From a virus (taxonomy: Duplodnaviria; Caudoviricetes): 64,000 nt of DNA. The position numbers and the translations under genes were made by a program. The notes beneath the pieces were generated by a model. That model was given only the letters and a program-made list of their open reading frames with translations. It was not told the origin of the DNA and searched no databases. The stretch spans positions 1 to 64,000 of IMG/VR virus record IMGVR_UViG_3300028327_000538; one strand, given 5' to 3'. Shown here piece by piece: positions 23,839 to 54,039 of this stretch; the stretch's first letter is position 1, and every line of letters begins with the position of its first letter.

Positions 23839-24375
23839 ATGAGCATCAACTTTTTACCGACTCATCATATGGTTGAGGGCGCGATAAATATAAAACTGAT
23901 AAATATTAATCCAGAATACAATACTCTGCCTCTGGAAACGCCTTCAAGATCATATTATATTGAAAAAGAAACTCCTGAAAATCTAACTCCAATGGCGCAA
24001 TGGCTGGCTGACAATGTTCCCAACGCCACAAGGAACAGAGGTTTGTTTACAGTCAAGGTTATTGATGACACGCGGACGCAAGGCGACATCAACAGAGAAC
24101 AGAACGCAAGAACTCGTTGGGGATGGGGCCAGTATTTTAGCACCCCCGAACAGGCTCTTGAATCAACAGAAAAAATGATCAGAGCATATAACCTGGACGC
24201 GGAACCGGCTACAATAAAAGACTTCGACTTTCCTTTATACAATGGAGAGCCGGTAAGCGAATATTGGGAAAAAATCGCAAGCCATCTACAGTCGCAAGGG
24301 ACAACGAGAATTATAATAACAGACCATAATCAGAATAAGGTTTGCTACCCGCCCAGCAGCGAGCAACGCACATGA
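23839..24375 (+). CDS. Hypothetical protein
   Basis: AAGGAAGG RBS; 178 aa. Confidence 0.6.
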   Translation: MSINFLPTHHMVEGAINIKLININPEYNTLPLETPSRSYYIEKETPENLTPMAQWLADNVPNATRNRGLFTVKVIDDTRTQGDINREQNARTRWGWGQYFSTPEQALESTEKMIRAYNLDAEPATIKDFDFPLYNGEPVSEYWEKIASHLQSQGTTRIIITDHNQNKVCYPPSSEQRT

Positions 24376-24581
24376 ACATCAAATCAATCAAATTTGCCAT
24401 TAGGATTTACTGGAAAGAGATATTTGGAGACGATCCGTTTGTTCCTATAGTGATTGGGACTGCGATTGCCGCTACAATTTTAGGTGTAATTCTTTATAGG
24501 CTGTATGGACATCCATTTGACTATATTCTTGTTGGACTAGGTCTATTGGGGCTTGTTTACGCAAAGTGGGGAAAATACTAA
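24372..24581 (+). CDS. Small two-TM membrane protein (paralog of 53463..53687)
   Basis: KSIKFAIRIYWKEIFGD...YGHPFDYI. Confidence 0.7.
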   Translation: MNIKSIKFAIRIYWKEIFGDDPFVPIVIGTAIAATILGVILYRLYGHPFDYILVGLGLLGLVYAKWGKY

Positions 24582-24922
24582 CCGCATATTGTTTGTCGAG
24601 ACGGTTTCAGACTGTTTTCTTCTTCCTCTTCTCGTCGTCTTGCCTCTACAACGCCCTCAGAAAAACGATTACCTAAAGTGGCGGCGATTGTTGGCGGTAT
24701 GCCAACTTTGGCGCCTAACACCACTCCAACGCCAGACGCAAGAATGCCAGCGGCCAATAGAGCGTCTCTACGCTTTTTGCGTTTCTTCGCTTCGGCCATT
24801 TTTACCAAGAAATCGGCTACAACTATCTGTCGATCATATCTCTCAACTACACGTTGAGCCGCTATCTTGAGTAGCTCTCTTTCCCTAGGGCTGAGGTCGG
24901 CAAGTCTGAAACAATTGATCAT
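24578..24922 (-). CDS. K-x-A protein with basic patch and Gly-rich hydrophobic helix (paralog of 53671..54039)
   Basis: RLADLSPRER...VERY...LVKMAEAKKRKK. Confidence 0.7.
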   Translation of the reverse strand: MINCFRLADLSPRERELLKIAAQRVVERYDRQIVVADFLVKMAEAKKRKKRRDALLAAGILASGVGVVLGAKVGIPPTIAATLGNRFSEGVVEARRREEEEENSLKPSRQTICG

Positions 24923-24984
24923 AGATCAATTATCTCACAAAAGAGGCGGCAACGCTTCTTTTTAGCTATTAGAGGCAGTCTTTA

Positions 24985-25296
24985 TCAGCTTCTGCTCGCT
25001 CTTTTGAACATAGCCAAAATCCTGGCCCGGCTCTCATCGTCCTGAGCGGCTTCGCCTTGGCGCACGGCATCAGCAAAACTTTCACCAGGGCCTCTTCTTT
25101 TGTAAAATATGGCGTTCAGAATGTCCTGACCGTTACTAAGCCCCTCTACTATGGAACCTTCACACATCGCGTCCGCAAAGGTCTGGTCGGGGCGTCTGTA
25201 GGGTTTGTTGTCTGCACATCTGTCTCTTGACGCAGCATATCGATCATATCCCTGTTCAATTTGGAGGGCGAGTTCTTCTGGGATTGAATCAGTCAT
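24985..25296 (-). CDS. Hypothetical protein with an internal repeat
   Basis: RRPDQTFADAM / RRGPGESFADAV. Confidence 0.55.
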   Translation of the reverse strand: MTDSIPEELALQIEQGYDRYAASRDRCADNKPYRRPDQTFADAMCEGSIVEGLSNGQDILNAIFYKRRGPGESFADAVRQGEAAQDDESRARILAMFKRASRS

Positions 25297-25495
25297 TTGG
25301 ATGCCTCAAGCGTTCTATTACTCTTTTGTATTGACCATAGACAGATGGCTCGCGCCTGGACGCAAGGAGCTTGTCCAATTTTATTTCTTTGCCGGCATTA
25401 GGAGTGCGACTTTCCACCCATTCCAGATCGCTGGTGCTTTGTTCCAGTTGCTCTATACAGCTAAGAGATTTTATTTCTTCTGGGGTCAAAGTCAT
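25289..25495 (-). CDS. Small hypothetical protein
   Basis: AAGGA RBS; coupled to the next gene. Confidence 0.5.
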   Translation of the reverse strand: MTLTPEEIKSLSCIEQLEQSTSDLEWVESRTPNAGKEIKLDKLLASRREPSVYGQYKRVIERLRHPND

Positions 25496-25940
25496 CTTGT
25501 ATCCTTCAAATTACTTTCTTAAAGTTCAAATCTTTCAAACGAACCACCTATTTCGTTTAGAGCAGAGATAATTTGAGGGTTATTTACCGTCCTACGAAAA
25601 TCTTCAGGTTGCTGTTTGTCGTCGAGCAAATCTTTAATCTTATGCGAATCAAATATTTTAGGGTTTTTGCATATACGATAAATTACAGAAATCGCTAAAC
25701 ATATAGCATACACAAGCACTGCCATATAGAGATAAAAGACAATATCAATAATTCTAATTATCATTTCTCACCGCTCCGCTTTAATTGAAGTGATTTTCGC
25801 AACATTGCAGGGTTACTAATCCTTCGATTTTAGACAAAACTTCTATGACTGAGGCAATTTTCTCATCAACATAGGCATTTACTTTCACACAGACTGTCTT
25901 GTGCATATTTAACTAACACCAATACCATTAGTGTACATCA

Positions 25941-26561
25941 TCACACGTTCAACAAGGCTTCCATTGCTTCGGCATACCTGATCTTAATGTTAGGCTCTAT
26001 TTCCGTTAAATAATTAGCATATGAGGCTGCCTCGTCCTTGGTCATTAAGGGTTTTGTCGTAGGAGCTTCTCGCAGCGCCTCAAATATACTACATAAACTG
26101 AGGGGCTTGCGTTCTGTATCTTCGGAGTCCTCACCAGGGCCATCCCATTCTTTAAGATCATAAGTATAATCAACCAAGTCTTCCCAATCCCAGGCTCCGA
26201 AATAGTCATACACCTTAGCCATAGTCACCATTTCTTGATAGGCGAATAGGTTGAAATCACTGTCTTTTAACTCTCTGGTGAGTTTGAGATTGCCTTCATC
26301 GTCCTTTTTGCATATCCATAAATCCCATTCGGCTTGGTCTGCGGAATTTGCTATGCCCTCGAATAAGTCCAGCACTTTTTCGAGCGCCGGCCCTCGTTTC
26401 ATTGAGAGGTAAGAGTCATCGCTGATCGGAAACCTGTACGTAGCCAAAGCTCGTCTATCCGCCAGATACATCAGCTTCATAAGTTTGGCATGGTGCATTG
26501 AGCCGCCAGCGCGGTAGAGAAAGTAAGCCGCCATCTGTGCTACTTTGCGTACTTTATACAT
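25941..26561 (-). CDS. Panacea-domain (DUF4065/SocA-like) antitoxin
   Basis: AAYFL...KLMKLMYLADR...PISDDSY.SM..GP...EW; GGAGG RBS. Confidence 0.85.
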   Translation of the reverse strand: MYKVRKVAQMAAYFLYRAGGSMHHAKLMKLMYLADRRALATYRFPISDDSYLSMKRGPALEKVLDLFEGIANSADQAEWDLWICKKDDEGNLKLTRELKDSDFNLFAYQEMVTMAKVYDYFGAWDWEDLVDYTYDLKEWDGPGEDSEDTERKPLSLCSIFEALREAPTTKPLMTKDEAASYANYLTEIEPNIKIRYAEAMEALLNV

Positions 26562-27467: not shown

Positions 27468-30400
27468 TTAATACCTCCCCTCACCGGAATCAGCAAGGTT
27501 TCCCGACACGAATGGGAGTACGGGATTGTAGCCGTGAATGTCGGATTTGTAACCGTAGGCGGCTCCTTCCTGCAGCCCTTTCTTGAGATAGCGGTATCCA
27601 AGGTGCGCGGCCCAATCACGGCTTTTGAGCGGCGCCTGTGTCACTCCCTCAAGGTGCGGCGTGTATGAAATGGGCTGGTGCATGGCTACTATCTTTTTGC
27701 CCTTCAGCTTCTGTATTTCATCCTCGCCAAGCCTCGTGCCCTTTTTGAAACCGGCGACGGGCTTGGCGAGAACCATTCCGTAAGCCTGTTCCGCCTGGAC
27801 GTTGTAGGGCTTCATGGCTTTTTGGTTCCATGTGTTTATCGTTGAGAGCGGGAGGACTTCGTTCATAACGGCTGTCGGGTTTGTTCCGGCGTCTGTTACC
27901 TGACCGAAGCCGGCCATGCCGCGCACTACTGTCTCTATGTTCCTGCGGTCGGTTTTGATGCCGGTGCCCTGATATAACTTTTGAAGCGTGGAGGAGATGA
28001 CATTGAGGCCCTTGTTGACGCCCAGGAGTTGCAGGGCCTGTTTGGGATGCGGCAGACCATGTGACAGCAGAGTTCCCTTTTCAACGGTGTCACCCGGTTT
28101 TACCAGGGGTTCCTTGTCGGTGAAGTGCTTGGTGTTGTCCACGAATATCTCGTATCCGCCCGCCGCGCCCTTGTTCACTTTTGTGACCCTGCCGTTGGTT
28201 GTCGCCATCGCCGCCTGTTGCTTGAATGTCTTGGGGGCTTGCAGGAACGAGGCTATGTCCTCGAATCCGCCGAACACACCGCCGCCGCCTGATGTCGTGC
28301 CGCCAAGGTGGAATGTCTTCATGGCGGCCTGTGTCAGAGGTTCCGATATGGCCTGTGCCGACTGGACGCCGATATTGTGGCCTATCTGGTAGAGGTTGCC
28401 CGTGCTGTCATGCCCCGCGCATTTCCGGCATATACCGTTGGCGGACTGGCAGGTGGCGGGCGACCTGACAATGACGGGCGCTTTTTTCTTAGCTATCTGG
28501 ACTGCCATCTCTTTTGTGATGAGCTTGCACTCCTTTGCGAGATAGCGTCCGGCCAGATACGGGTCGTCCGCCGGAAGTTCCAGCCCCTCTTTTGTCTTGC
28601 AGTCCTCCTGCGAGACAACGATGGACATTGACGTGTTGACTATCTCTTTGTTGAGGGCACCGGGCTTGCTCGTCATCAGTTGTTTGTCCAGTGAGCCTTT
28701 ACGCGCTCCGTAGAGCGTAGTCCAATAATCGGGGAAGCTCATGCCCTGGGCGTAATTCGACAGCACCGGACGTTCTATCGGCTTGCCGTCATGATCCTGC
28801 AAAATACCGGGGGCGTAGAGTATCTGTTTGACCTGCTCCGCCGACCCTCTGGCTCCGCTGGCTGCCATGACCACAAAGTTGTTGGTCTTGTCGTCAAGCG
28901 CCTGGGCTTTCACTTTCGCGTCGGCGGCCACCATCTGAGGAAGTGTCCTGGCTCCTTTGTAAGCCTGCGTGACAACGCCGCGGTCTGCCTCAAGGTCTTT
29001 GAGCGACAGTGAAAAGCCTACGTCCGTGGCGGCCTGGTCTCCGATACCCTTGATGGAAGTAACTATGCGGTTGTAGTATTCGGGGTATTTCTTCGCTATC
29101 TCCTCAAGGCGCTTCTCCACATCGGCCTTTGTGATGCCAGCCTTGAATTTGGATACGCGCTTGGGGAGCAGTTTGTTGATTTTACTGAGGCCGTCCTTGC
29201 TTTGGGACATGAGGTGCAGCCCCAGAATGGCCTCCTGATCAGGTGTGTAGTTGAGCCTGTTGTCTCTGGGGTTATAGAGGTTCTTGCTCGGCATCATTTC
29301 AAAGGCTTCTTTCCGGGCTGCTTCTGTGGCCGGAACATGAAGCGTCGCGGTGTCGCCATCAAAGTCCATGCTGAAGGGTTTGACTATAGTGCCGGGCACT
29401 TCGATTGACAGCCCCTTGGTCAGGGTTGGCTGAAAGCCCATGATGGAAAACTTATGCAGAGACGGCGCACGGTTCATCAATACCGGGCGATCAGACATGG
29501 CTGCTTCCAGGGACTTGCGGCCAATGTCGTCCAGCTCCTCAATATGCTTTTCGGCCTCTTTGTGGGCATAGCCAATGTTTTTGAGGTTCTTCATGGCAAA
29601 GGGCTTGTAGATTGTCTTTGCTATCTTTTCAGGTATTGCTATCTGATCCATGTTCAAATTGTTGTTCAGCACGACGGTTGCGCGTCCGGTGAGGTCGACC
29701 TGCTTTCGGACTACCTTTGACTGGAACATACCGCGCTTGGGGCTGCCCTCGCCGGTGATGATTCTTAGAGCGCCTTTCGCGCCCATCTTGCCTGTCTGCT
29801 CCGAAACCGGAGAGGCGACGCCCTGGATCGCGCCCAAACTCTGATACAGTGTCTGTGTCAGTTCAGGACTTTTAGTTCCGCTCTTGAGGGCTTCATTTGT
29901 CACGCCGAGATCGCGATACAGCATATTGAGCGACGAGACTTCCACGTTGCCGCTGGGAAGCTCGAAAGCCGGTCTGAACTGGGGCGGCATGACGGGGACA
30001 ACGCTTGTCATGTAGGCTTCTTTCGGCTTCATGCCGAGTTCTTCAAGGGCTTTAAGCAGCTTCAGCTCCTTTAGCATCGCTTCTTGTTTTGTCTTTGGGG
30101 CGGTCTTGATGCCCTTTGTGATCTGGTCAATCTTGCCTCTGACGTTGATGCCGGACAGCTTTTCGGATATTGCCTTGTGCCCGTCCTCGTCTTTTATGGC
30201 TTCCTGAAACTGTTTCTCAGTCATGCCAAGCAAGGTCTTTACCGGCGAGGCGAACATTGGGTTCACAATCGGATGCGCCAGTGTAATCTTCGACCACTTC
30301 TGCCCGTTTGAGCCGCCTGTCAGAAAGCGGTCAAAGAGTCCGCCCTTGATGGGGTTGCGTTTGTGGTCTAGCATCTTGAAGTTACGCAGCTCGTTTGTCC

Positions 30401-33392
30401 CCGCGTAATCAAGAGCGTCCTTGTCGGTCATGGGGGCCAGTATGCGCTTTGAGCCGTCCGTCCTTACGTTTACACCGGCGGCGTTAAGCGTGGCCTCAAA
30501 TTTGTTGTATATAAAGGGAACCTGCGGCTTGGGAAGCGGCAGGCCGTTTTCGAGGTTCTGCCAGTAATCCGCGTTCCCGTCGCCGCGGACAGTGGAAATC
30601 TCGCTGACGACATTGCGCTTGCCGTGGGAAAGCAGACTGTACAATGTCAGCGGGTCAACGGCCTTTGAGCCGTCCTCGCCGCCTTTGATTGGCTTGTTGT
30701 CCATGTCATACATTCCGACATCCCTGGCTGACACATTCGCTGTAGCGGTTTTGAACAGCTTCTGTATGACGGGCCTGCCGACAAGCACCTTGCCGTATTC
30801 TTTTTTGGTCACTGGGTCTATGAGCGTCTCGGTGTCTGAGATGCCGTGTTTCTTTAGGTCTGCCTTGACTTTTTCCAGGGACTTCTCGTCAAAGTTTTTG
30901 ACTAGGTAGGGCTTTCCCGTCTTTTCGGCTATCTTGCTCGCGGCGGTCTCAATGAGCTGGCCGGGGGTCATGCGTGTGATTACGCTGGCGGGTGAGATTA
31001 TCACCTCGGTGGACGCGCCGCCGGCTGTCTGGGGCATTTCTTTGTCGGCCACTATCGCGGTTATCACGCCCTTGTTGCCGTGACGCATTGAGAGTTTGTC
31101 GCCGACGATGGCGGGGGATTTGGTCTTTATGCTAACCTTGGCGTTGCTTCTGTTGACCGTGGCGGCGACTACCTCGCCGGGATTGAGCGCCGTCCATGTC
31201 TGCGAGGCGTCCTGGTATGGCTGCACAAGCGACCTGTGGAGGCGGTTGAACATCAGGTCTTCATTCGTGCCTGTGGTCTTTTGCAGCGTGAGAGCTGTCG
31301 GGTCTCCGGGTTCGAGGATAACGCCCGGTTTCGCCAGTCCGTTGTCGTCTATCTTTGCCAACTGCTCTTTTGTGTACTTTGTCGGGTACAGGGACATGAA
31401 CTTTTTCTTGTCTATTATAACGTCCTCGCCGTCTTTGGCGATATGAGTCTGAATCATGTGGTTGGACGTGAGCTTTTTGGCGGCTGTTTCTGAAACAACA
31501 ATGCCGTCCTCGAAATTCAATCCTTTCCAGGGCATGTAGGCCACTCTGAGATTGGAGCCGAGGGCCAGTGTGCCGTTCTTTGTGAAATTGGAATCCGCTA
31601 TCAGCTCGTCCTTTTTGAATTTCTGCCCGACTTGCAGCTTGTCTATGCCCTCGTGTGTTAGATAGGATTTGTTTTGCAGTTCAAAGTCTTTGTAGTAAGG
31701 TATTTTTATGTCGCCTTTGCTTGTAGAGAAGATGATATGTGACTTGCTTATCTGCTTAATGGAACCATTTTCGGGCGCTTTAATAGCAAAGCTGGCGTTT
31801 CCTGAGTTGGCTGTTAAGGATTCGATTGATTTTTCGCCCGCCAGCGAAGTTTGAACCAACGGGGCTTCCCTGTTTTCAAGGGATATTGCCTGGGCTATCT
31901 GCCTTGTAGCCATGCCGAGGCGATTGCCCTGGTCGTGGTGCTGAAGCGGTATAAACTGGCTGGCTATGCCAAAGGCTGAGGCTGTGTCGCGCAGTTGGTG
32001 CGTCACTTTGGCGGCGTCAATCTGCACCTGCTTGCCGCGGTGTATGGCCGTGACCTTGCCTTTGAGTTTCTGCTGGGGCAGTGCTATAACTTTGTCAAAA
32101 GCCTGAAGCGCGGAGAGTTCCTCAACCTTGTTGGTCTTGACGTTCTTGAATTTGGATACAATCTCATTGCCTCTTTTACTGGCGTCAACGGTCATATTGA
32201 GGACAACGCCGATCTTGTTGGACTCCGGCGTGTTCACGGGATCAAGGAAGCCAAGGTGCGTGGGGTGCAGGGCCTGGCTGTCGGGCATTATCGCTTCGGG
32301 ATTCTCTATGCCGCCCTCGCCTGTGATTGTGACCTTATCGTTGCCTTTGAGCATCGCTATTGGGTTTATCTGGCTTGGATTTTCTGAGAGCGCGGCGGAG
32401 TTGAAGAACGAGTTGATTGGTTTGCTGAAATACTGAGACGACACTATTTTTGTCAGGTCGTCGGACTTGCGGAGTCTGCTCGCGAGCTGATGGCGGATAC
32501 CGTTCTGGCTTCTCCTGAGCTTCTCGGTGACAAAATCCGGCGTTGAATGCAGTGTCTTAAATGCCAGGGCGTCGCGGTCGTCGGAGTCCTCTATCTTGCG
32601 GCTCACGTTCAGAACCTTTTCCAGGCCGCGGAGAATGAAACCGCCGTCAAGTCTGTCAAACTTCTTGCCCATCGTTATCTCTGTAACCTTGGGGTCGAGC
32701 TTGGCGTTCTTCATTGCCTCGGAGAGTTCCTGAGCCATTTCAGCGACGGACTTTTGTTCGGCGCCGATTGCGTATGGGTTGACCGAGCGGTAAAATCGCC
32801 TGATTTCATCGGACATCTTGGCGTCCGTCAGCTTTTCGGTATTGGCCTTATAGACATCGGCGCCAAATGTGCGCTTCATCTGCTCGTGCGATACGCCCAG
32901 GGCGGACAGAACCGGTATGGCGTTGATTTTGGCCTGATTCACATTGATGGAGAGGTTCTTTGTCTCAGGGTCTATGCCAAGCCTGATTTGCTTGAATCCG
33001 TCGGGATTGACGTGGGCCTCAATCTCGCCGTTCTGCTTGGTGCGGGAATAGAATCCGGGGCGGAGCCGCAACTGGTTGTTGATTTGATACTGGACGCCCT
33101 GCACCACGTACGTTCCGTCGCCGGTCTGCGTGGGGACCGTCGCCAGCTTCATTGTCTTGGTTTCTGTCTTGCCATTGGCCTGTGTAAATGTGACGTCGCC
33201 CATAATCGCCACGCCATAGGTCTTGTCCAGACGCTTGGCCCTGGAAATGGCGTGGTAATTGGTCGGGTCGGCGTTCTCGGTATTGGATACACGCAGGTTG
33301 GAGACGGTGAGTGTCTTGTCGCCCGATTTAATCGGGAATGTGCTTTTTATCTGGTTGATAACAGAATCAATCAATGGCTGGGTTTGGTTCAT
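27468..33392 (-). CDS. Phage DNA-directed RNA polymerase, fused beta + beta' (probably virion-packaged)
   Basis: beta: TPE..KIG, HHDQGNRLGM, AYMPWKGLNFEDGIVVSE, GDKLSMRHGNKGVI, RMTPGQLIE; beta': GGLFD, VPVMPPQFRP, RKQVDLTGR, NRAPSLH, DFDGD, SGARGS, GARKG, RSPATC..IC..C, AQAISEPLTQAAMKTFH. Confidence 0.97.
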   Translation of the reverse strand: MNQTQPLIDSVINQIKSTFPIKSGDKTLTVSNLRVSNTENADPTNYHAISRAKRLDKTYGVAIMGDVTFTQANGKTETKTMKLATVPTQTGDGTYVVQGVQYQINNQLRLRPGFYSRTKQNGEIEAHVNPDGFKQIRLGIDPETKNLSINVNQAKINAIPVLSALGVSHEQMKRTFGADVYKANTEKLTDAKMSDEIRRFYRSVNPYAIGAEQKSVAEMAQELSEAMKNAKLDPKVTEITMGKKFDRLDGGFILRGLEKVLNVSRKIEDSDDRDALAFKTLHSTPDFVTEKLRRSQNGIRHQLASRLRKSDDLTKIVSSQYFSKPINSFFNSAALSENPSQINPIAMLKGNDKVTITGEGGIENPEAIMPDSQALHPTHLGFLDPVNTPESNKIGVVLNMTVDASKRGNEIVSKFKNVKTNKVEELSALQAFDKVIALPQQKLKGKVTAIHRGKQVQIDAAKVTHQLRDTASAFGIASQFIPLQHHDQGNRLGMATRQIAQAISLENREAPLVQTSLAGEKSIESLTANSGNASFAIKAPENGSIKQISKSHIIFSTSKGDIKIPYYKDFELQNKSYLTHEGIDKLQVGQKFKKDELIADSNFTKNGTLALGSNLRVAYMPWKGLNFEDGIVVSETAAKKLTSNHMIQTHIAKDGEDVIIDKKKFMSLYPTKYTKEQLAKIDDNGLAKPGVILEPGDPTALTLQKTTGTNEDLMFNRLHRSLVQPYQDASQTWTALNPGEVVAATVNRSNAKVSIKTKSPAIVGDKLSMRHGNKGVITAIVADKEMPQTAGGASTEVIISPASVITRMTPGQLIETAASKIAEKTGKPYLVKNFDEKSLEKVKADLKKHGISDTETLIDPVTKKEYGKVLVGRPVIQKLFKTATANVSARDVGMYDMDNKPIKGGEDGSKAVDPLTLYSLLSHGKRNVVSEISTVRGDGNADYWQNLENGLPLPKPQVPFIYNKFEATLNAAGVNVRTDGSKRILAPMTDKDALDYAGTNELRNFKMLDHKRNPIKGGLFDRFLTGGSNGQKWSKITLAHPIVNPMFASPVKTLLGMTEKQFQEAIKDEDGHKAISEKLSGINVRGKIDQITKGIKTAPKTKQEAMLKELKLLKALEELGMKPKEAYMTSVVPVMPPQFRPAFELPSGNVEVSSLNMLYRDLGVTNEALKSGTKSPELTQTLYQSLGAIQGVASPVSEQTGKMGAKGALRIITGEGSPKRGMFQSKVVRKQVDLTGRATVVLNNNLNMDQIAIPEKIAKTIYKPFAMKNLKNIGYAHKEAEKHIEELDDIGRKSLEAAMSDRPVLMNRAPSLHKFSIMGFQPTLTKGLSIEVPGTIVKPFSMDFDGDTATLHVPATEAARKEAFEMMPSKNLYNPRDNRLNYTPDQEAILGLHLMSQSKDGLSKINKLLPKRVSKFKAGITKADVEKRLEEIAKKYPEYYNRIVTSIKGIGDQAATDVGFSLSLKDLEADRGVVTQAYKGARTLPQMVAADAKVKAQALDDKTNNFVVMAASGARGSAEQVKQILYAPGILQDHDGKPIERPVLSNYAQGMSFPDYWTTLYGARKGSLDKQLMTSKPGALNKEIVNTSMSIVVSQEDCKTKEGLELPADDPYLAGRYLAKECKLITKEMAVQIAKKKAPVIVRSPATCQSANGICRKCAGHDSTGNLYQIGHNIGVQSAQAISEPLTQAAMKTFHLGGTTSGGGGVFGGFEDIASFLQAPKTFKQQAAMATTNGRVTKVNKGAAGGYEIFVDNTKHFTDKEPLVKPGDTVEKGTLLSHGLPHPKQALQLLGVNKGLNVISSTLQKLYQGTGIKTDRRNIETVVRGMAGFGQVTDAGTNPTAVMNEVLPLSTINTWNQKAMKPYNVQAEQAYGMVLAKPVAGFKKGTRLGEDEIQKLKGKKIVAMHQPISYTPHLEGVTQAPLKSRDWAAHLGYRYLKKGLQEGAAYGYKSDIHGYNPVLPFVSGNLADSGEGRY

Positions 33393-33909: not shown

Positions 33910-33976
33910 TATTTTTAGCTATTGCTTGCAGGGGGGCAGTGCGGTAGAATATAAATACATATTAAAAGGAGAAAAT

Positions 33977-34813
33977 GTGATTACGAAGGTTGGAAATATT
34001 CTAAAAATTGCTGATATTTATCAGTTCAACACTAACTCTAGTGATGATTATTTAGAAGGTTATGATAGCTATGGCGGTAGAATATGGAAAAACAATAAAT
34101 ATCATAGCCCGAACTGGTCGCTACTTGCTAAAGAAGACCCAAGCGGCAAAGAATTAAATTTTGAACCGATTGAAAAATTCAAAAAAAACAAAAAAATATA
34201 TAACATGGCATCAAAATTAGTAAATGGCGCGTATTCGCCCTCATATTATGATCGCGTTCACGACGTGTATGCCATTAATTACGATGAGATTCCTCCTGGT
34301 GATACTCCTGTATTAATTAGGCCGTCTAATGATTCATCTAATGCTAAAAGTTCTGTGAAAGGAATAGTAAAAGGCGTTGCTCTAGGAGGGGTTAGCGGGG
34401 CAATTCTTGGCAGAGCGTTGTCCGGCAGTATTCGCGGCGCTGTTAGTGGCGCTGTTTCAGGTAGCATTCTTGGAGGAGGGATAGGCGCTCTCCACAAAAA
34501 AGCCAACGAGTTGTCCCGTAAAGAGCGCAGAGACGCTTTTGAGAGTAAAATATTAAATCCGCAAACGACTAAAGATTACGCAAGAACTTTTGGAATGTTC
34601 GGTGCAGGTATAGGTGCTGGGCAGTCACTCAAGAAGATAATTGAACACCGCAAAGAAATAGGCGAAATGACTCGACATTTACCAGGCGGAAGAAAGGCTG
34701 CTATTGTTGGTCTTGGTATCGACACCCTTGCAAATGCTGCGTTATTAGGCGGTATCGGTGCTGGTGTTGGCGCTGCTACCGGAACATTCATAAACAGAAA
34801 ACGTAAGACCTAA
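33977..34813 (+). CDS. Glycine-zipper cargo-like protein with (M)ITKVGNILKIA leader
   Basis: GTG 33977 after AAAGGAG; several GxxxG helices; HKKA. Confidence 0.7.
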   Translation: MITKVGNILKIADIYQFNTNSSDDYLEGYDSYGGRIWKNNKYHSPNWSLLAKEDPSGKELNFEPIEKFKKNKKIYNMASKLVNGAYSPSYYDRVHDVYAINYDEIPPGDTPVLIRPSNDSSNAKSSVKGIVKGVALGGVSGAILGRALSGSIRGAVSGAVSGSILGGGIGALHKKANELSRKERRDAFESKILNPQTTKDYARTFGMFGAGIGAGQSLKKIIEHRKEIGEMTRHLPGGRKAAIVGLGIDTLANAALLGGIGAGVGAATGTFINRKRKT

Positions 34814-37280: not shown

Positions 37281-37293
37281 ACCTCTCCTCCTT

Positions 37294-37544
37294 ACCAAGA
37301 GACGTACATCCTACCAGAAATGCCTTATGTTTTCTCCCTGGATTGTTTCAGGGCGATCAGGATGGACGAGAGACCGGTCAGGAAAGCGGCGCCGTCGTCC
37401 AGCCATCCGACTACAGGAATGACATCCGGGATAAAGTCTACAGGAGAAACAATATATACCAGGCTGGCTATGGGGATTAAATATCTTGTGACGATTTTAC
37501 GCATGTCTCTCACCAAGAGACGTACATACTACCAGAAATGCCTT
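37294..37544 (-). repeat. 33-bp direct repeat (1 mismatch) flanking the DUF1232 gene; contains an extended -10
   Basis: ACCAAGAGACGTACAT(C/A)CTACCAGAAATGCCTT at 37294-37326 and 37512-37544; minus strand TGgTAG(G/T)AT. Confidence 0.85.
37325..37516 (-). CDS. DUF1232/YkvA family membrane protein
   Basis: YIVSPVDFIPDVIPVVGWLDD signature. Confidence 0.9.
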   Translation of the reverse strand: MVRDMRKIVTRYLIPIASLVYIVSPVDFIPDVIPVVGWLDDGAAFLTGLSSILIALKQSREKT

Positions 37545-39765: not shown

Positions 39766-39867
39766 CTATTTGAAGATACTACGGAAGAAGCGCACTGCCT
39801 CTTCGTCTTCGGGTGTTCTTACCACGAAGAAAAGTATTATGCTTCCTACTATTTCGACTATTCCCAT
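39766..39867 (-). CDS. 33-aa hydrophobic peptide, copy 2
   Basis: MGIVEIVGSIILFFVVRTPEDEEAVRFFRSIFK*; GGAG RBS. Confidence 0.7.
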   Translation of the reverse strand: MGIVEIVGSIILFFVVRTPEDEEAVRFFRSIFK

Positions 39868-40149
39868 TTGAGGCTCCACAAAAACAATGGTTGGGAAAGG
39901 ATTTAGCAGCAACTAACTGTAAGTTGCCGCCAAGTATGTAACGGTATATATCTCTTCAGAGTGTTCTTGTCTGTTCCTTCTATTAGTTTTATCTTGTTTC
40001 CTGCGCGACCACAGCCTCTACGGGCTGTCGCTTTACCGGGTCGTCGTTGTCAGCCACGTTACCTCCTGTAAAAAACACATGGTAACAACAATATAGAAAG
40101 GGGGAAGCCCCTTTCTTTTAGCTATAATTAAAACAGAAAGGAAAACTAT

Positions 40150-40635: not shown

Positions 40636-42777
40636 CGTCTGGTCTTTGGCGGCGTCAACTATTGAAGTCGAAAGCATTCGTTCTCCGGCGGAGCTGTCCA
40701 TTAAGCGCATCAGGTTTTTAATGGGTTCGGTGTCCAATCTCCGGCCCTTTTCATCGCGAGAAAGATCGACATACAGCTCATTGGCTATCCTTATTCCTGA
40801 ATAGTCGGATATTTTCATTATGTTGTAGGCGTCTGGAGGGTTGGGGCCTACGCAACTGTGGAAGATGGCGAAGTCCTCGAAAGATGCTATTTTTCTTTTT
40901 GTGTTTTTTCTGTAATCCTCTTTGAATCTGCTTTTGTATATCTTTGCAATTTCTTCCGCCTGTTTTGTTGGTTTTTTGAAGTCGCCAACCGCCATAATCG
41001 GCTCACTGCCAATCAGAGCCATAGAATAGTCAAGCGAAGTCTTAGCTTGCCCGGTCGGGGAACCAAGTATCGGGTCGTGCGCCAGGGCCGTATTCGTTAT
41101 GTCTTCATGGCAGTAACGCGGATAGCTAAGTTGCAAAACGATTGAATAGCTGCCCTGGGCGCTCCAGGACTTTGAGCAGCTCTCGCACCAGGCCATGATG
41201 TGAGGGCCGCTGTCGCTGATGATAAGAACACTGTGGCCGGGCACAATATCAACCGTTGACGTGACCTGGACTGAAATAGAGCGGTTCTTGAAATAGGATT
41301 GGAGGAATTCATAATTCAGAAGATTTTTAAGTGTGGAGAGTTGTTTTTGGGTTTTCTCAAAATCTTCTGAGGTCGAAAATTTTTTGACTTCGGCTTCTGC
41401 TTTGGCAATGTCTTCTTTCTTCGCGTCTTTTTTTTCTTTTAACGTCTCAAGTCTTTTTTGCGCGGCGATATACTCCGGGAACGAGGCCCTCATGCTGGAC
41501 TCAAGACTGTCAAGCGATTGCTGGTAGGCGGTGTTAAACTGGACGTCAAAATGGCTCGCGCCGTATTCATGTTCGTACGGGGAATATCCGCGATCCGTCC
41601 TCCATAACATATGTTCGCTTTTCGGCGCGGAGAATGAGCGAAAATGTCCGTCCGGGTCGTCGAATTTAGGCCCCACAACCACTGTGGTTGTGAATGGCGC
41701 ATCCACGAATGGAATCCTTACTTTATACCTGTCCCGCGTAGGCTCGCTTAAATAATTGTAGCTCATTGACATGGAGACAACTTGATCCGGGAACAGGATA
41801 TTGCATTTTGGAGGTATGGCTATTATAGACTTTGGTTTTACAAAAAACTCGGCCATGCCGGGGTATTTGCGGTTATTTAAAGCGAGAATGTCTGCTGTGG
41901 CGCTGCCTTTGCTACTGCTCTCATAGTCTTTGGAAGCTCCGAGCGTCATTGGTAGAAATGTGGCTCTCGGAATATTGTAGATGTCGTAATATCCATACGA
42001 AAGCACTCTGAACGCTATATCAAGGTACGAGTTCAGCCCCTGAAGGTCTCCGCAGTTAAGAGCCGTTTCGCCAATAATGTCAAAGGTCTCCTGGGTGTTT
42101 AAGAACTTCTTGGTGAACTCATTCGTGGGCACACCATACAATTTACGATTCAGGCCGTAATTCGTCAGAAACTTTCTGTACCACCAGGGGTTTGCCCGTT
42201 CTGTTTGCTCCAGCAACGGCTTGGCTCCGTCTCTGCTACAGATAAAGCCCTTGCCATTATAGAAGTAACGGTATCCCGTTATGCCGTCGCTTTTTTTGCC
42301 GTACGGCTCGTTGGTCAATACGCACGCGGTCGCCATCCCGACATCGTACGAGTTCTGCTTTACGATCTGGGAGAAGTAATTCGTAAGAACGCCGTCGATC
42401 CTGATATTGAGTGAGGTGTCCATTCCTCTGTTGTCCAGCATTTCAAGCTGAGTGATATAGGCGTCCAACTGTTTGCGCTGGCTCCATATAATTCCGTCTG
42501 TGTAACCGGTAAAATTAAACTGAACGCTTCCGTTGACGTCTTTGCTTTCGCTCTTGGCTACAAGCGCTCCGTCAAACTCCAATTCTGACGGGCTGCTTTC
42601 CGTGTCCTGGCGCCATATCTGGAACTTTGTATAGCGTCTGAGATTGATAATCCACGGAGAATAGGGAATACTTACATCGCATCGCGCCAGTGTGTTAAAT
42701 CCGCTATGCACCTGAAAAGCAATCATAGGGGTTTTAACACCGGCTATGAATAGGTGGAATTTTGGGGTGTGGATCAT
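40573..42777 (-). CDS. Putative baseplate hub/tail protein
   Basis: 734 aa; N-terminal LFIAGVKTP...FDG; C-terminal DIVPGHSVLII..G.H...CSKSWS beta-barrel pattern typical of hub proteins. Confidence 0.5.
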   Translation of the reverse strand: MIHTPKFHLFIAGVKTPMIAFQVHSGFNTLARCDVSIPYSPWIINLRRYTKFQIWRQDTESSPSELEFDGALVAKSESKDVNGSVQFNFTGYTDGIIWSQRKQLDAYITQLEMLDNRGMDTSLNIRIDGVLTNYFSQIVKQNSYDVGMATACVLTNEPYGKKSDGITGYRYFYNGKGFICSRDGAKPLLEQTERANPWWYRKFLTNYGLNRKLYGVPTNEFTKKFLNTQETFDIIGETALNCGDLQGLNSYLDIAFRVLSYGYYDIYNIPRATFLPMTLGASKDYESSSKGSATADILALNNRKYPGMAEFFVKPKSIIAIPPKCNILFPDQVVSMSMSYNYLSEPTRDRYKVRIPFVDAPFTTTVVVGPKFDDPDGHFRSFSAPKSEHMLWRTDRGYSPYEHEYGASHFDVQFNTAYQQSLDSLESSMRASFPEYIAAQKRLETLKEKKDAKKEDIAKAEAEVKKFSTSEDFEKTQKQLSTLKNLLNYEFLQSYFKNRSISVQVTSTVDIVPGHSVLIISDSGPHIMAWCESCSKSWSAQGSYSIVLQLSYPRYCHEDITNTALAHDPILGSPTGQAKTSLDYSMALIGSEPIMAVGDFKKPTKQAEEIAKIYKSRFKEDYRKNTKRKIASFEDFAIFHSCVGPNPPDAYNIMKISDYSGIRIANELYVDLSRDEKGRRLDTEPIKNLMRLMDSSAGERMLSTSIVDAAKDQTLNNSWIIKEHNKVISSAQSL

Positions 42778-43733
42778 AGGTTTTGCTGGAATGTGCGGCC
42801 AATTCTCTTTGCGCCGCCCAGCAGTCTCGAATTTGAATTCGCGAAACTCTGTTTCCAGGTCAGACCGCCGCCAACACCTTTTGCAACGGAATGTCCGTAA
42901 TCAAAAGCGCCCCCCATTATGGCTCCCCGGCCAAAACCCTTGCCGAAAGCCCCTAATCTGGACTCGCCCGGCTGGGCGGTTGCCGCTGAAACTGTTCCGT
43001 CCAGAGCGCCCCATCCCAATGCTGATTTTGCCGACCCGGCAAACAAGCCTTTGTTTTTATACAGGGCTTTGCCTGTCGTCGCTACAGCACCAAGAAGCGA
43101 AGATACTTTGGAAAACGCGGGAAGAGCTTCTTTATAAGTCTGGTTAAGCCGCTGGAATGGAGTGAACTGACCCTTGGGCATCGTAGTTCTTTTGATGTGG
43201 TCCATGTGCGACCCCACTCCCATTGCTCCACCAAACACAGCGCCCCATTTGGCTCCGCTCAACGCGCTCTGCATTTTCTCGCCGCTTGGTGCTGAAATGG
43301 CGTTTATGCCGGCATTAACGCCGGCGTCGACGGCTCCGTGAGCTATGACTTTTTTAGTTACGGGATTTGACCACAATCTAGTTCCAAGCCTCGCCAATTG
43401 GGGAACAAAGGCTTTCTTTTCTATTGACCCTTTCGGGCCAAGCGCTCTATAGGCTAAGGCTCCTCCCAATACACTGGCGCCAACACCTAACATGTATCGA
43501 CCATATCGTTGATGTAGTTTCTTTGGATCATAAGAGAACCCCAAAATGGGCTTTGCGTATGACGTGCCCTTTTCTGTTTGATCGAGTAAATCTCTAATGG
43601 CAAAAGCCGCTGTGCCAGCGGCCAAAGCTGAACCAACATTACGGGCATTGAGTGCGCGATGAGAAGTTTCCTTGACGTTGGACGAGTCACCCAAGCGCTT
43701 GATAGGATCTGGCAACTTCTCTTTGATGGGCAT
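42774..43733 (-). CDS. Glycine-zipper K-x-A cargo-like protein with two internal repeats
   Basis: IEKKAFV; ISAPSGEKMQSALSGAKWGAVFGGAM / ATAQPGESRLGAFGKGFGRGAIMGGAF. Confidence 0.65.
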   Translation of the reverse strand: MPIKEKLPDPIKRLGDSSNVKETSHRALNARNVGSALAAGTAAFAIRDLLDQTEKGTSYAKPILGFSYDPKKLHQRYGRYMLGVGASVLGGALAYRALGPKGSIEKKAFVPQLARLGTRLWSNPVTKKVIAHGAVDAGVNAGINAISAPSGEKMQSALSGAKWGAVFGGAMGVGSHMDHIKRTTMPKGQFTPFQRLNQTYKEALPAFSKVSSLLGAVATTGKALYKNKGLFAGSAKSALGWGALDGTVSAATAQPGESRLGAFGKGFGRGAIMGGAFDYGHSVAKGVGGGLTWKQSFANSNSRLLGGAKRIGRTFQQNL

Positions 43734-44200
43734 TAAATTCTTCCGACAAGGGACTGGGCTTTTTTTGCGAGATTCCTTGAGCTTTGAAGCATGGCAGCGC
43801 TGTTTTGCAGGTTGTCTATTTCGTTTTTAGAGAGCGCTTTTGACACTGTTTCAGCGGTTTTGACTTTACCTAGTCCCAATTTGTTATTAACCTTAGCTGA
43901 TCCCATAGCACCACCGGCGGCTCCGCCAATAACCGCTCCTTTTAATGCACTCTTTATTCTGTGGTCTTTATCGCCAAGAGTACCGCCTATAATCGCTCCC
44001 GGAACGGCTCCTTTAATAACGCCCAAACCAGTACCGCCAATCAATGAGGCGGTTGCTCCTTCCGCTCCCATTCTGGTTAATCCAGCGGCTGAACCAAGAA
44101 CTCCGCGCCTTCCAAGCCAAGCTCCTATTTGTCTAATTAAAGACTCTTTAACAGCGGCTTCTTTTGTTAAGGATAATATATTGCCAACTTTTGTTATCAT
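43733..44200 (-). CDS. Glycine-zipper cargo-like protein with MITKVGNILSLTKEA leader
   Basis: Leader shared with 33977..34813; GAGG RBS. Confidence 0.7.
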   Translation of the reverse strand: MITKVGNILSLTKEAAVKESLIRQIGAWLGRRGVLGSAAGLTRMGAEGATASLIGGTGLGVIKGAVPGAIIGGTLGDKDHRIKSALKGAVIGGAAGGAMGSAKVNNKLGLGKVKTAETVSKALSKNEIDNLQNSAAMLQSSRNLAKKAQSLVGRI

Positions 44201-52009: not shown

Positions 52010-52542
52010 ACGACGAAGTAGTGTACATGCGATTGCCGCCGGAACTATTAAAGGAGTTGAGAAATGCAGGTGTCTCTTATACTGGAGAACCCACGAATCC
52101 CAATGGGGAATCTGTGTAGAAGATTTGACAAAGAGCAGGGGCACGTAATCAGCGAATGTCAGTTCTTATATCGCCCCGGCCCAGAAATATGGTGTTGGCT
52201 TTTTGATGCGAGGCTCGGCTATAGCTACAGTAGCTCAGACAAGCGGATCAAGAAATGCCCCAAGTGCTTGGAGCGCACACAAGACTTCAACGTTACAAAA
52301 GTGAGCAAAAAACACGATGTGCCCGACAACAATTCGTGCAGAGAGTTCAACGAAGAAACGGGTGAAGAAATCAGTTCCTGTCGGTACATATTAAACGAAA
52401 GTATCAAAAGGTGCTACTTCTTCAGAGAGCGCCTGGAAGATGGAAACCGCATAAACGACACAGTAAAGTGCAAAAGCTGTGCAGCCAGTTTAAAAGCGGC
52501 AAAAACAGAAAGCGAAGTAATTATTTTTACTGAGGAAGGCAT

Positions 52543-52908
52543 ATGCTCTTAAAAATTACGGAAGAAGAACGGGATATACTCATATCCCTATTGCAGAACA
52601 CGCCTCACAAAGAACTGCTGGAGAACGTATCCAGGGCTGAAGAAACCAACTGGAAAAAACTGGGCGAGATAACCCTGGAAGTTGACAACCATTATTTCGT
52701 TTGGCCTAAAGACGCAAGAGACGCAATCGAGGCTATTTACTGTGCGGAAGATGAATTTCTGGGGGAGCCAACAGAACCATACTTCTGCGGATGTGGTTAC
52801 TACCAGGACGTACATTATGACATGGACGAAGTGGAATATGTAGCTGAAACAGATGGCATATGTGAATCTCCTACAAGAACACCTGAAGAACAAGGACTAG
52901 GCGAATGA
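52543..52908 (+). CDS. Acidic hypothetical protein
   Basis: In operon with overlapping neighbours. Confidence 0.55.
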   Translation: MLLKITEEERDILISLLQNTPHKELLENVSRAEETNWKKLGEITLEVDNHYFVWPKDARDAIEAIYCAEDEFLGEPTEPYFCGCGYYQDVHYDMDEVEYVAETDGICESPTRTPEEQGLGE

Positions 52909-53339
52909 CTACAAAATCACGCCCTGTAAAATACATGCCTCAACACCCCTGGCTTGACAGCATCTTCTTTAACAGACTGTTGCAAGCGCTGGAGAGAGCG
53001 TTTAGCCAAAATACGGAGATACTACCCGAATATGACAAAATCGCCATAACAGATCTCAACTTTCCCTACCACTGGCTCAGAGAAACTGACCGAGCAATTA
53101 GCTTGGTGGTTGACGTTATGTGCGCGAGAGAATCAGAAATTTTCTTCGTAGAGGTAACTGAAAATGGGGATTTCCTTGTGCGAAGTATAGGCCCAAGAAC
53201 AAACCCCTACCGCAATAGAAGCAAGCTGAAACCAATCCACACACATATGAAAAACGAAGAATTTCCCGATAATATAGACTGGTCCGCTCGTAACCACCCA
53301 TGGAACCACTACCTGACAAAAGAGCCTTTGAATGGCTAA
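52905..53339 (+). CDS. Hypothetical protein
   Basis: ATGA overlap with the previous gene. Confidence 0.55.
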   Translation: MTTKSRPVKYMPQHPWLDSIFFNRLLQALERAFSQNTEILPEYDKIAITDLNFPYHWLRETDRAISLVVDVMCARESEIFFVEVTENGDFLVRSIGPRTNPYRNRSKLKPIHTHMKNEEFPDNIDWSARNHPWNHYLTKEPLNG

Positions 53340-53462
53340 AGGACAAAATCTGCGCTGGAAGCTGTTTAAGTTCTGTCGAATACTCTTCAATATATTACTT
53401 ATTGTTGCGATAATATATTTTGCCAAGGACTTTTGGCGCTTGTTTTTGCGCTGGGTATCCTC

Positions 53463-53687
53463 ATGAGTTTCAAATCAATCAAGCTCGCCCTCAAAATATA
53501 TTGGAAAGAAACTTTCGGAGATACAACGCCCACATTTGTCTTTTCATGGGCAATAGGGGCTATAGCTCTTACCGCTATAGCCATTTATTTGATTATAAAA
53601 TACGGCCATCCCTGGGATTACATTTTTGGAGGTATGGCTCTGTTGGGCATGGTATGTGGGACAATTCTTGCTAAGAAAGGTTACTGA
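53463..53687 (+). CDS. Small two-TM membrane protein (paralog of 24372..24581)
   Basis: KSIKLALKIYWKETFGD...YGHPWDYI. Confidence 0.7.
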   Translation: MSFKSIKLALKIYWKETFGDTTPTFVFSWAIGAIALTAIAIYLIIKYGHPWDYIFGGMALLGMVCGTILAKKGY

Positions 53688-54039
53688 TATTTTGACCAGA
53701 TAGCCTGGATATTCTTTTACGCTTTCTTCTTTGCCTTTCGGCTTCAGCATAGCCATCTAAAATGTCATTGCTGGGAATTGTCGCAACTGACACTGGAACC
53801 CCGGTTTTAACCGCATTCGCAATGGTAAATCCGGTTCCAAGCAACCCACTGGTCAAAATTATGGTTTTGCCTAAACCGGCCTTTCGTCTTTTCTCTTCCG
53901 CCAACTTCTCAAAATATCGCTCCACCAGCATCCGCCGGTAGTTCTCCTGTCTGTACCGCTCAACCATGTGTTGAGCGGCCAGCGTGAGGCGGTGTCTTTC
54001 TTCTGGACTGAGATCGGCAAGTCTGCGATGGTTATTCAT
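53671..54039 (-). CDS. K-x-A protein with basic patch and hydrophobic helix (paralog of 24578..24922)
   Basis: RLADLSPEER...VERY...FEKLAEEKRRK. Confidence 0.7.
   Translation of the reverse strand: MNNHRRLADLSPEERHRLTLAAQHMVERYRQENYRRMLVERYFEKLAEEKRRKAGLGKTIILTSGLLGTGFTIANAVKTGVPVSVATIPSNDILDGYAEAERQRRKRKRISRLSGQNISNLS

What the first reader, a model, noticed from the sequence alone, without database searches (positions are those of the whole stretch)
24372..54039. Twice-repeated convergent pair: K-x-A effector-like gene facing a small membrane gene (toxin-immunity-like)
Seen: 24372-24581(+)/24578-24922(-) and 53463-53687(+)/53671-54039(-). The minus-strand genes share RLADLSPxER...VERY...K(M/L)AE-basic patch, then a divergent Gly-rich hydrophobic segment. 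The plus-strand genes share KSIK.A..IYWKE.FGD...YGHP(F/W)DYI with two TMDs. The tail-to-tail linkage is kept in both copies despite divergence, and both lie near a Panacea antitoxin gene. Inference: a virion-processed membrane-active peptide plus an early-expressed cognate immunity or exclusion protein.
Basis: partly seen in the sequence, partly recalled or inferred. Interest (0 to 1): 0.8.

Follow-up and report, generated by a model that had tools for sequence, protein, structure and literature searches.

The report
Duplicated convergent small membrane-gene cassette
A large, poorly related phage carries two old, diverged copies of a two-gene cassette (a 114-122-aa protein with a glycine-rich hydrophobic segment facing a 69-74-aa two-helix membrane protein); it looks like a toxin plus membrane-immunity pair, one copy wired behind half of a Panacea antitoxin gene, but nothing shows that it is cut up in the virion.

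Summary
A1/A2 (24578-24922 and 53671-54039, minus strand) are paralogues (36% identity, E 2e-21). B1/B2 (24372-24581 and 53463-53687, plus strand) are too (52%, E 4e-18). Homology stops at the edges of the two genes. The 3' ends overlap in both copies (4 and 17 nt). Synonymous sites are saturated while all four frames stay open. So this is an old two-gene cassette under purifying selection.

Both families are near-orphans. The only outside relative of A is one 98-aa metagenome protein; B has none.

A2 overlaps the stop codon of a Panacea gene. That gene keeps only the first half of the domain, and its close relatives in ten other phage contigs pair with an unrelated soluble protein. A1 lies 1 kb from the other Panacea gene and has its own leaderless extended -10 promoter, of the class that also precedes the phage RNA polymerase gene.

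Best reading (about 0.4): a membrane toxin (A) with a membrane immunity partner (B). It resembles PanT membrane toxins and the opposite-strand immunity genes of pore-forming colicins. Virion processing at K-x-A has no support. A's membrane insertion is itself uncertain.

The parts
24578..24922 (-). A1, 114 aa: N-terminal helical head (RLADLSPRER...VERY), KMAE plus a basic patch, a Gly-rich hydrophobic segment (residues 54-83, GxxxGxxxG), and a charged C-terminal helix
24923..24945 (-). Leaderless extended -10 promoter-like site TGAGATAAT-N6-ATG directly in front of A1, preceded by a weak hairpin plus U-run
   Evidence: the same motif class precedes 6 other gene starts, including the RNAP gene; 8 observed against 2.5 in shuffles
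24372..24581 (+). B1, 69 aa: amphipathic N-terminal helix, TM1, YGHPFDY loop, TM2. Its start overlaps the stop of the 178-aa gene 23839-24375 (ATGA); its stop overlaps the A1 stop (CTAA)
53671..54039 (-). A2, 122 aa, paralogue of A1. Its start overlaps the stop of the half-Panacea gene by 8 nt (ATGAATAA)
53463..53687 (+). B2, 74 aa, paralogue of B1. Its start overlaps the stop of a 44-aa TM ORF (ATGA); its 3' end overlaps A2 by 17 nt
54032..54385 (-). PanA2, 117 aa: N-terminal half of a Panacea domain (profile positions 1-64 of 113) plus an unrelated 50-aa tail with four Cys
25941..26561 (-). PanA1, 206 aa, full Panacea domain; 1.02 kb upstream of A1 on the same strand with four small ORFs between. 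Probably not in one transcription unit with A1
25519..25764 (-). 81-aa ORF with a strong N-terminal TM helix, two ORFs downstream of PanA1: a better candidate partner for PanA1 than A1

Best explanation
A and B form a self-contained two-gene accessory cassette of the phage. A is a small membrane-active toxin-like protein: a cytoplasmic helical head, a basic patch, a glycine-zipper-like and marginally hydrophobic segment that would insert or oligomerise in the inner membrane, and a charged C-terminal helix. B is a two-helix integral inner-membrane protein with both ends in the cytoplasm. B would act as A's cognate antagonist (immunity), probably through contacts between the membrane segments. 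The two copies would then be two diverged specificities. In copy 2 the cassette has additionally been placed behind, and translationally coupled to, a recombined half-Panacea antitoxin gene. Copy 2 may therefore work as a PanA-PanT-like module with a third, membrane partner. Shown: paralogy, block boundaries, overlap, purifying selection, the Panacea domains, the promoter motif. Inferred: toxicity, which protein is the toxin (A over B about 60:40), membrane insertion of A, and any physical A-B or A-PanA2 contact.
For: Homology covers exactly the two genes and nothing else. pS is 0.74 (A) and 0.86 (B), which is saturated, against pN 0.40 and 0.31, with all four frames open. Both 3' overlaps are kept. 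B is the only partner conserved beside both A copies. Conservation sits in the soluble heads and in B's loop, while the hydrophobic segments of both proteins diverge. That pattern is what is expected if cognate specificity lies in the membrane parts. A's architecture (charged N-terminal region and helix, then a hydrophobic segment) matches validated membrane-disrupting PanT toxins, and PanA binds the N-terminal region and the helix before the TM segment of B. choladocola PanT (PMC8832971; PMC10440598). A2 overlaps the PanA2 stop by 8 nt. PanA2's relatives sit in classical bicistronic PanA-toxin operons. Immunity genes of pore-forming colicins lie on the opposite strand with their own promoter (PMC9517006).
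Against: There are no functional data and no homologue of known function: Pfam, PHROGs, NCBIfam, PADLOC and PDB all came back empty or below threshold. The linkage rests on one duplication or transfer event, so keeping the arrangement is inheritance rather than independent evidence. A's hydrophobic segment is marginal for membrane insertion: summed Hessa scale +0.5 (A1), +3.1 (A2) and +2.2 (P0003) kcal/mol. AlphaFold2 models it as low-confidence strands (pLDDT 41-46). That segment weakly resembles the FadB/FadJ Rossmann beta-alpha-beta. PanA2 lacks the C-terminal half of Panacea, which holds a residue needed for neutralisation in B. choladocola PanA (H120). A1 is not adjacent to a Panacea gene and has its own promoter. 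B is translationally coupled to unrelated upstream genes, not to a promoter of its own.
Confidence: 0.4

Rival explanations
1. Copy 2 is simply a PanA-PanT type II toxin-antitoxin pair (PanA2 antitoxin, A2 a new membrane PanT family). Copy 1 is a paralogous toxin gene. B is an unrelated small membrane protein that happens to be the last gene of the converging operon and was co-duplicated.
For: The 8-nt overlap of PanA2 and A2. Panacea passes Pfam's cut-off. Relatives of PanA2 lie in bicistronic toxin-antitoxin-like operons, and Panacea is known to swap toxin partners (PMC8832971). Many PanT are small TM peptides with a charged N-terminus. Both A copies lie downstream, on the same strand, of Panacea genes of different lineages: PanA1 and PanA2 share 28% identity, while PanA2 is about 60% identical to foreign PanA.
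Against: PanA2 keeps only profile positions 1-64 of 113 and loses homology after residue ~67, so it may be a remnant. A1 has its own promoter and sits four ORFs and 1 kb from PanA1, which has a nearer TM candidate partner. The published criterion of conservation in two or more species cannot be met. This reading does not explain why B is kept intact beside A in both copies.
Confidence: 0.22
2. There is no toxin logic. A and B are two ordinary small accessory or membrane proteins (for example superinfection exclusion, lysis timing of the holin/antiholin kind, or membrane remodelling). They were duplicated together because they are neighbours. Alternatively A is not a membrane protein at all.
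For: Small hydrophobic proteins are common at operon ends in large phages. B has the size and two-TM topology of class II holins and of T4 Imm-like exclusion proteins (own knowledge). A's TM propensity is marginal and its model has low confidence. One duplication event explains the shared arrangement.
Against: None of the neighbours scanned (the 178-aa gene upstream of B1; the 121-, 144-, 162- and 173-aa genes upstream of B2) matches an endolysin family in Pfam or PHROGs (not every gene was run in both libraries). B gives no PHROG holin match. B's C-terminus is only 4-6 residues long, unlike the charged tails of holins. The block boundaries coincide exactly with the pair.
Confidence: 0.28
3. 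One reading: A is packaged in the virion, cut after K-x-A by the head protease, and its C-terminal membrane-active fragment is delivered on infection. B protects the infected cell.
For: K(M/L)AE is invariant in all three known A-family members. A head-maturation-protease-like gene exists at 13612-15072. Hydrophobic-x-K-x-A is mildly enriched genome-wide (58 against 40, z 2.8). A2 ends an operon containing large genes with no family match that may be structural.
Against: A has no similarity to any virion protein. A lacks the ITKVGNIL leader of the phage's other Gly-zipper proteins. Plain K-x-A is not enriched (z 1.6). A1 is a separate transcription unit with the same promoter type as the RNAP gene. 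A2 is coupled to an antitoxin-type gene.
Confidence: 0.06

Closest known systems
PanA-PanT (Panacea) type II toxin-antitoxin pairs with membrane-disrupting PanT (clusters T3/T12; E. coli STEC O31, Bartonella apis/choladocola; Kurata 2022 PMC8832971, Ernits 2023 PMC10440598)
   Same: [quoted passage not shown] It is phage-borne. The toxin partner has been swapped relative to the antitoxin's closest relatives.
   Different: The antitoxin here has only half of the Panacea domain plus a new tail. The second copy (A1) is not adjacent to a Panacea gene. A has no sequence match to anything (I could not fetch the published PanT sequences to compare them directly). A conserved convergent third gene (B) is not a described feature. 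No conservation across species can be shown.
Pore-forming (ionophoric) colicin operons with an opposite-strand immunity gene (PMC9517006)
   Same: A membrane-active protein gene faces a small integral-membrane immunity gene on the other strand, tail to tail. Diverged cognate pairs exist.
   Different: A is 114-122 aa with no colicin pore-forming, translocation or receptor domains. B has two rather than three or four TM helices. B is translationally coupled to an upstream gene instead of having an obvious promoter of its own. The coding regions overlap.
Type I toxin-antitoxin loci with convergent, 3'-overlapping transcripts (for example bsrG/SR4 and txpA/ratA of Bacillus prophages; own knowledge, not checked here)
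   Same: A small hydrophobic protein gene whose 3' end is overlapped by a convergent transcript. Located on a prophage or phage.
   Different: Here the convergent partner is itself a conserved protein-coding gene. No antitoxin RNA family was found (Rfam). No terminators or unusual structure lie at the junction.
Phage T4 Imm/Sp superinfection exclusion proteins and class II holin/antiholin pairs (own knowledge)
   Same: Sizes and topologies are similar: a two-TM protein of about 70-83 aa and a single-pass protein of about 100 aa.
   Different: No sequence similarity. No endolysin family was detected in the neighbouring genes scanned. Those genes are not arranged as a convergent overlapping cassette.

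Membership tests
PanA-PanT toxin-antitoxin (Kurata 2022 criteria) | Antitoxin carries the Panacea (DUF4065, PF13274) domain | tested here: inconclusive
   PanA2 passes the Pfam cut-off (50.8 bits against 25.7) but covers only profile positions 1-64 of 113. Homology to full-length relatives ends at about residue 67. PanA1 has the full domain.
PanA-PanT toxin-antitoxin (Kurata 2022 criteria) | The two genes lie at most 100 nt apart in one operon | tested here: inconclusive
   Copy 2 meets it (8-nt overlap, same strand). Copy 1 does not: 1.02 kb, four ORFs, and A1 has its own promoter.
PanA-PanT toxin-antitoxin (Kurata 2022 criteria) | [quoted passage not shown] | tested here: not met
   The only outside A relative is P0003, on a 2,237-bp contig that could not be fetched. 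The ten PanA2 relatives pair with a different, soluble protein.
PanA-PanT toxin-antitoxin (Kurata 2022 criteria) | The toxin is toxic and is neutralised by the cognate PanA | not testable with these tools
   Needs expression assays.
Pore-forming colicin / immunity pair | The toxin has a colicin pore-forming domain | tested here: not met
   No Pfam or NCBIfam hit for A at E <= 0.1 other than noise.
Pore-forming colicin / immunity pair | The immunity gene is a small inner-membrane protein gene on the opposite strand downstream of the toxin gene | tested here: met
   B is convergent to A and has two hydrophobic helices. This is a likeness of layout only.
Holin (class II) with lysis cassette | Adjacent endolysin or spanin genes; a charged C-terminal tail | tested here: not met
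   The neighbouring genes scanned (178-aa gene upstream of B1; 121-, 144-, 162- and 173-aa genes upstream of B2) match no lysin family, though not every gene was run in both Pfam and PHROGs. B's C-terminus is 4-6 residues. No PHROG holin hit. The genome is only about 58% complete, so the real lysis cassette may lie elsewhere.
Type I toxin-antitoxin | A non-coding antisense RNA antitoxin overlaps the toxin mRNA | not testable with these tools
   The coding 3' overlap makes antisense overlap of the transcripts unavoidable. There is no Rfam family, and no transcript data are available.

The most novel reading that the evidence does not exclude
A new phage-borne membrane toxin/immunity cassette: two protein genes that converge and overlap at their 3' ends (so each transcript is antisense to the other), present as two diverged specificities in one genome. 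One copy has captured the N-terminal half of a Panacea antitoxin as a third, cytoplasmic controller. That would make it a three-part hybrid between type II toxin-antitoxin and colicin-style immunity logic.
Probability: 0.2. Interest if true: 0.6.

Novelty: new variant of a known kind. Interest (0 to 1): 0.4.

Why it matters
If A is a membrane toxin controlled by B, it adds a new toxin family and a new membrane immunity family. It would also add an unusual layout for a phage toxin module: two protein genes converging with overlapping coding ends. If PanA2 also acts on A2, then half a Panacea domain with a new tail can still serve a new toxin, which bears on how this 'hyperpromiscuous' antitoxin swaps partners. 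Two diverged copies in one genome would give a ready-made cognate versus non-cognate test. If it is only a pair of accessory membrane proteins, the finding is ordinary. The weight of the evidence is limited by there being one genome and no relatives.

Tried and rejected
Searches for relatives of A and B found only the window's own genes plus P0003:
- IMG/VR pattern scans with single sequences and alignments.
- JGI metagenome contigs.
- GTDB genome contigs.
- tblastn against 50,697 phages and 72,556 plasmids.
- The 5.8-billion-protein word search.
- A full HMMER search of 1.84 billion representatives, for A only.

Other dead ends:
- Relatives of the phage itself, sought through the two large neighbouring genes, gave none.
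- PanA1 has no close relative in IMG/VR.
- ESM Atlas gave only sub-threshold hits.
- Both AlphaFold2 models (pLDDT 58 and 68) were too weak for a fold search.

Ideas rejected:
- A's N-terminal head is the missing C-terminal half of Panacea: hhalign probability 0.5%.
- The duplication included the Panacea gene: PanA2 is about 60% identical to foreign PanA but 28% to PanA1.
- Shared upstream DNA or promoter between the two A copies: no alignment.
- A CGCAAA phage-promoter motif inside B1 firing antisense into A1: the second half of the motif is absent.
- Intrinsic terminators or unusual RNA structure at the junctions: not above chance.
- A is a Rossmann protein: the GxGxxG motif is not conserved and E is 0.002-0.2.
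- A belongs with the phage's other glycine-zipper proteins: E >= 0.2 and no ITKVGNIL leader.
Full report
**Setting**

The window is the first 64 kb of a 96,165-bp IMG/VR virus record that CheckV rates about 58% complete. The record encodes:
- a fused beta-beta' RNA polymerase of 1,974 aa (27468-33392, minus strand);
- a large terminase (17349-18938) and a head-protease-like gene (13612-15072).

It has no near relative among 50,697 phage records. Its neighbouring large genes find no relative in IMG/VR.

**Observation**

- A1 (24578-24922, minus, 114 aa) and A2 (53671-54039, minus, 122 aa) align end to end at 36% identity, E 2e-21.
- B1 (24372-24581, plus, 69 aa) and B2 (53463-53687, plus, 74 aa) align at 52% identity, E 4e-18.
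- An all-against-all comparison of the ORFs of the whole record finds exactly two copies of each and no further paralogue.

Homology stops at the borders of the pair.
- The genes upstream of B (178 aa against 44 and 144 aa) are unrelated.
- The gene upstream of A1 (103 aa) is unrelated to the gene upstream of A2.
- At DNA level only two short conserved-motif stretches still match.

Synonymous differences are saturated (pS 0.74 for A, 0.86 for B). Non-synonymous differences are 0.40 and 0.31, and all four frames are open. The unit is therefore an old two-gene cassette with all four genes under purifying selection.

In both copies the coding 3' ends overlap:
- CTAA in copy 1 holds both stop codons (4 nt);
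- copy 2 overlaps by 17 nt.

The two transcripts must therefore be antisense to each other at their ends. No terminator or unusual RNA structure lies at the junctions. No Rfam family or tRNA lies in the window.

**Anatomy of the proteins**

B:
- It has a basic amphipathic N-terminal helix, a clear TM helix (Hessa-scale sum -1.2 and -2.0 kcal/mol), a short conserved loop YGHP(F/W)DY, and a second hydrophobic helix that is weaker, marginal in B1 (+3.5 and -0.1). It ends in 4-6 residues that include lysines.
- AlphaFold2 gives three helices at 3-18, 23-47 and 51-71, with pLDDT 68.5.
- By the positive-inside rule both ends would be cytoplasmic (inference).

A:
- It has a conserved head (RLADLSPxERxxLxxAAQxxVERY), a long helix ending in K(M/L)AE and a basic patch.
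- A roughly 30-residue Gly/Ala-rich segment follows, with an invariant K-x-G-(V/I)-P turn.
- A charged helix (EGxxEAxRR) ends the protein.
- The hydrophobic segment is only marginal for insertion (+0.5, +3.1 and +2.2 kcal/mol for A1, A2 and P0003).
- AlphaFold2 models it poorly (pLDDT about 41-46).
- The same segment gives weak hits to the NAD-binding beta-alpha-beta of FadB/FadJ (NCBIfam E 0.002; PDB 1wdk E 0.07). GxGxxG is not conserved among the three family members and the protein is far too short for a Rossmann domain. I treat this as compositional, but it is a warning that 'membrane protein' is an inference for A.

**How isolated the families are**

A and B match nothing above threshold in Pfam, PHROGs, NCBIfam, PADLOC or PDB sequences. 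They find no relative in any of the following:
- phage or plasmid records;
- IMG/VR, JGI metagenome contigs or GTDB genomes;
- the 5.8-billion-protein index.

A full HMMER pass of the A profile over 1.84 billion representatives found a single outside relative. This is P0003, 98 aa, E 1.4e-10, from a 2,237-bp JGI contig. It keeps K-M-A-E, the Gly-rich segment, K-V-G-V-P and EGLAEAKRRRR, but not the RLADLSP head.

**The Panacea link**

Both neighbouring genes are real Panacea (PF13274) genes. A third, truncated copy lies outside the window at genome 78015-78263. The two links to A are of very different quality.

Copy 2:
- The A2 start overlaps the PanA2 stop by 8 nt (ATGAATAA), the usual layout of a toxin-antitoxin operon.
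- PanA2 matches only profile positions 1-64 of 113.
- Ten IMG/VR contigs carry close relatives (49-64% identity). These are full 144-aa Panacea proteins, each followed by an overlapping, conserved, soluble protein of about 150 aa with weak NsnC/HNH-like matches.
- Homology of PanA2 to them ends near residue 67. Its last 50 residues (with CRLDPQC...CPYDSLC) are new.
- So a foreign panA gene was recombined. Its 3' half and its toxin were replaced by a new tail and by the A-B cassette.
- This is either partner swapping of the kind described for Panacea (PMC8832971; appended neutralising elements in PMC10440598) or a remnant left by an insertion.
- Against a working antitoxin: a residue required for neutralisation in B. 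choladocola PanA (H120, at the end of alpha-5) lies in the half that PanA2 lacks.

Copy 1:
- PanA1 is 1.02 kb and four ORFs away from A1.
- One of those ORFs (25519-25764, 81 aa, strong N-terminal TM helix) is a nearer partner candidate for PanA1.
- A1 is preceded by TGAGATAAT-N6-ATG. The pattern TGn[T/G]A[T/A]AAT-N4-9-ATG occurs 8 times in the record against 2.5 in shuffles.
- Seven of those sites sit exactly at gene starts on the minus strand, including the RNA polymerase gene. A1 is therefore most likely its own leaderless transcription unit.

PanA1 and PanA2 share only 28% identity, so the Panacea gene was not part of the duplicated block. Two A copies downstream of two Panacea lineages is suggestive. 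However, accessory genes cluster at operon ends, so I give it little weight.

**Interpretation**

The partner that is conserved beside A in both copies is B, not Panacea. Conservation is highest in the soluble heads of both proteins and in B's loop. It is lowest in the hydrophobic segments of both. That pattern would be expected if cognate recognition lies in the membrane.

The layout has a known analogue: a membrane-active protein gene facing a small inner-membrane protein gene on the other strand. Immunity genes of pore-forming colicins are arranged this way (PMC9517006). A's architecture resembles the validated membrane PanT toxins, which have a charged N-terminal region and then a hydrophobic segment, and PanA contacts the region before the TM segment.

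My best reading, at about 0.4, is a toxin (A) / membrane immunity (B) cassette. Copy 2 is additionally coupled to a half-Panacea gene. Which of the two is the toxin is unresolved; I favour A at about 60:40.

Rival readings:
- A plain PanA2-A2 toxin-antitoxin pair with B as a bystander: 0.22.
- Ordinary accessory membrane proteins with no toxin logic, including exclusion or lysis timing, or A not being membrane-bound: 0.28.

The virion-processing model has little behind it.
- K-x-A is seen 167 times against 149 expected (z 1.6). Hydrophobic-x-K-x-A is seen 58 times against 40 (z 2.8).
- A has no virion-protein similarity and lacks the ITKVGNIL leader of the phage's other glycine-zipper proteins.
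- A1 shares its promoter type with the RNA polymerase gene.
- In its favour, K(M/L)AE is invariant in all three family members and a head-protease-like gene exists. It is not excluded.

**Verdict**

The cassette is real, old and selected. It is made of two near-orphan small proteins in a layout that is unusual for phage toxin modules. Function is inferred only from architecture and neighbourhood, in one genome. I class it as a new variant of a known kind (toxin-antitoxin / toxin-immunity modules), with moderate interest (0.4).

Noticed in passing
window 54032-54385 (-); genome 78015-78263 (+), outside the window; window 25941-26561 (-): Three Panacea genes lie in 96 kb, and two of them are N-terminal fragments. 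PanA2 keeps profile positions 1-64 of 113 plus a new Cys-rich tail. The third copy is 82 aa and 56% identical to the PanA1 N-terminus. Either half-Panacea proteins are functional in this phage or toxin-antitoxin loci decay here repeatedly.
   Followed up: partly
L008-L017, about 3001-3900 in each locus: The closest relatives of PanA2 (10 IMG/VR contigs) are each followed by an overlapping, conserved soluble protein of about 150 aa (motifs ...VWxFD..D..G.F.F..., THD.GKSKHH, SFA..N..RIIG). It gives only weak NsnC / MAG6450 / HNH-like matches. This may be an uncharacterised PanT toxin family.
   Followed up: partly
window minus-strand gene starts 58167, 45027, 39256, 33392, 24922, 23793, 17134: An extended -10 motif TGn[T/G]A[T/A]AAT lies 4-9 nt before the ATG (leaderless mRNAs). 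Seven gene starts carry it, all on the minus strand, including the phage RNAP gene. There are 8 sites against 2.5 in shuffles.
   Followed up: partly
window 18934, 33875, 39283 (+); genome 80754 (+): A bipartite motif CGCAAA-N11-TTTTGTTATAAAC occurs four times, always on the plus strand in front of genes. It is a second promoter-like class, and it is absent from the two cassettes.
   Followed up: partly
window 25519-25764 (-): An 81-aa ORF with a strong N-terminal TM helix lies two small ORFs downstream of full-length PanA1. It is a candidate membrane PanT for PanA1.
   Followed up: no
window 53332-53466 (+): A 44-aa ORF with one TM helix is translationally coupled (ATGA) to B2 and overlaps the preceding 144-aa gene by 8 nt. 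It may be a third small membrane protein of locus 2.
   Followed up: no
window 33926-34813 (+), 43733-44200 (-), 42774-43733 (-), 36318-37298 (-): Several larger proteins are rich in GxxxG glycine-zipper repeats. Two of them share an ITKVGNIL N-terminal leader. They are not detectably related to A.
   Followed up: partly
window 23590-23793 (-) and 39656-39871 (+): A 36-residue stretch is 86% identical between two small ORFs at distant sites (all-against-all BLAST). One of them lies just upstream of the B1 operon.
   Followed up: no
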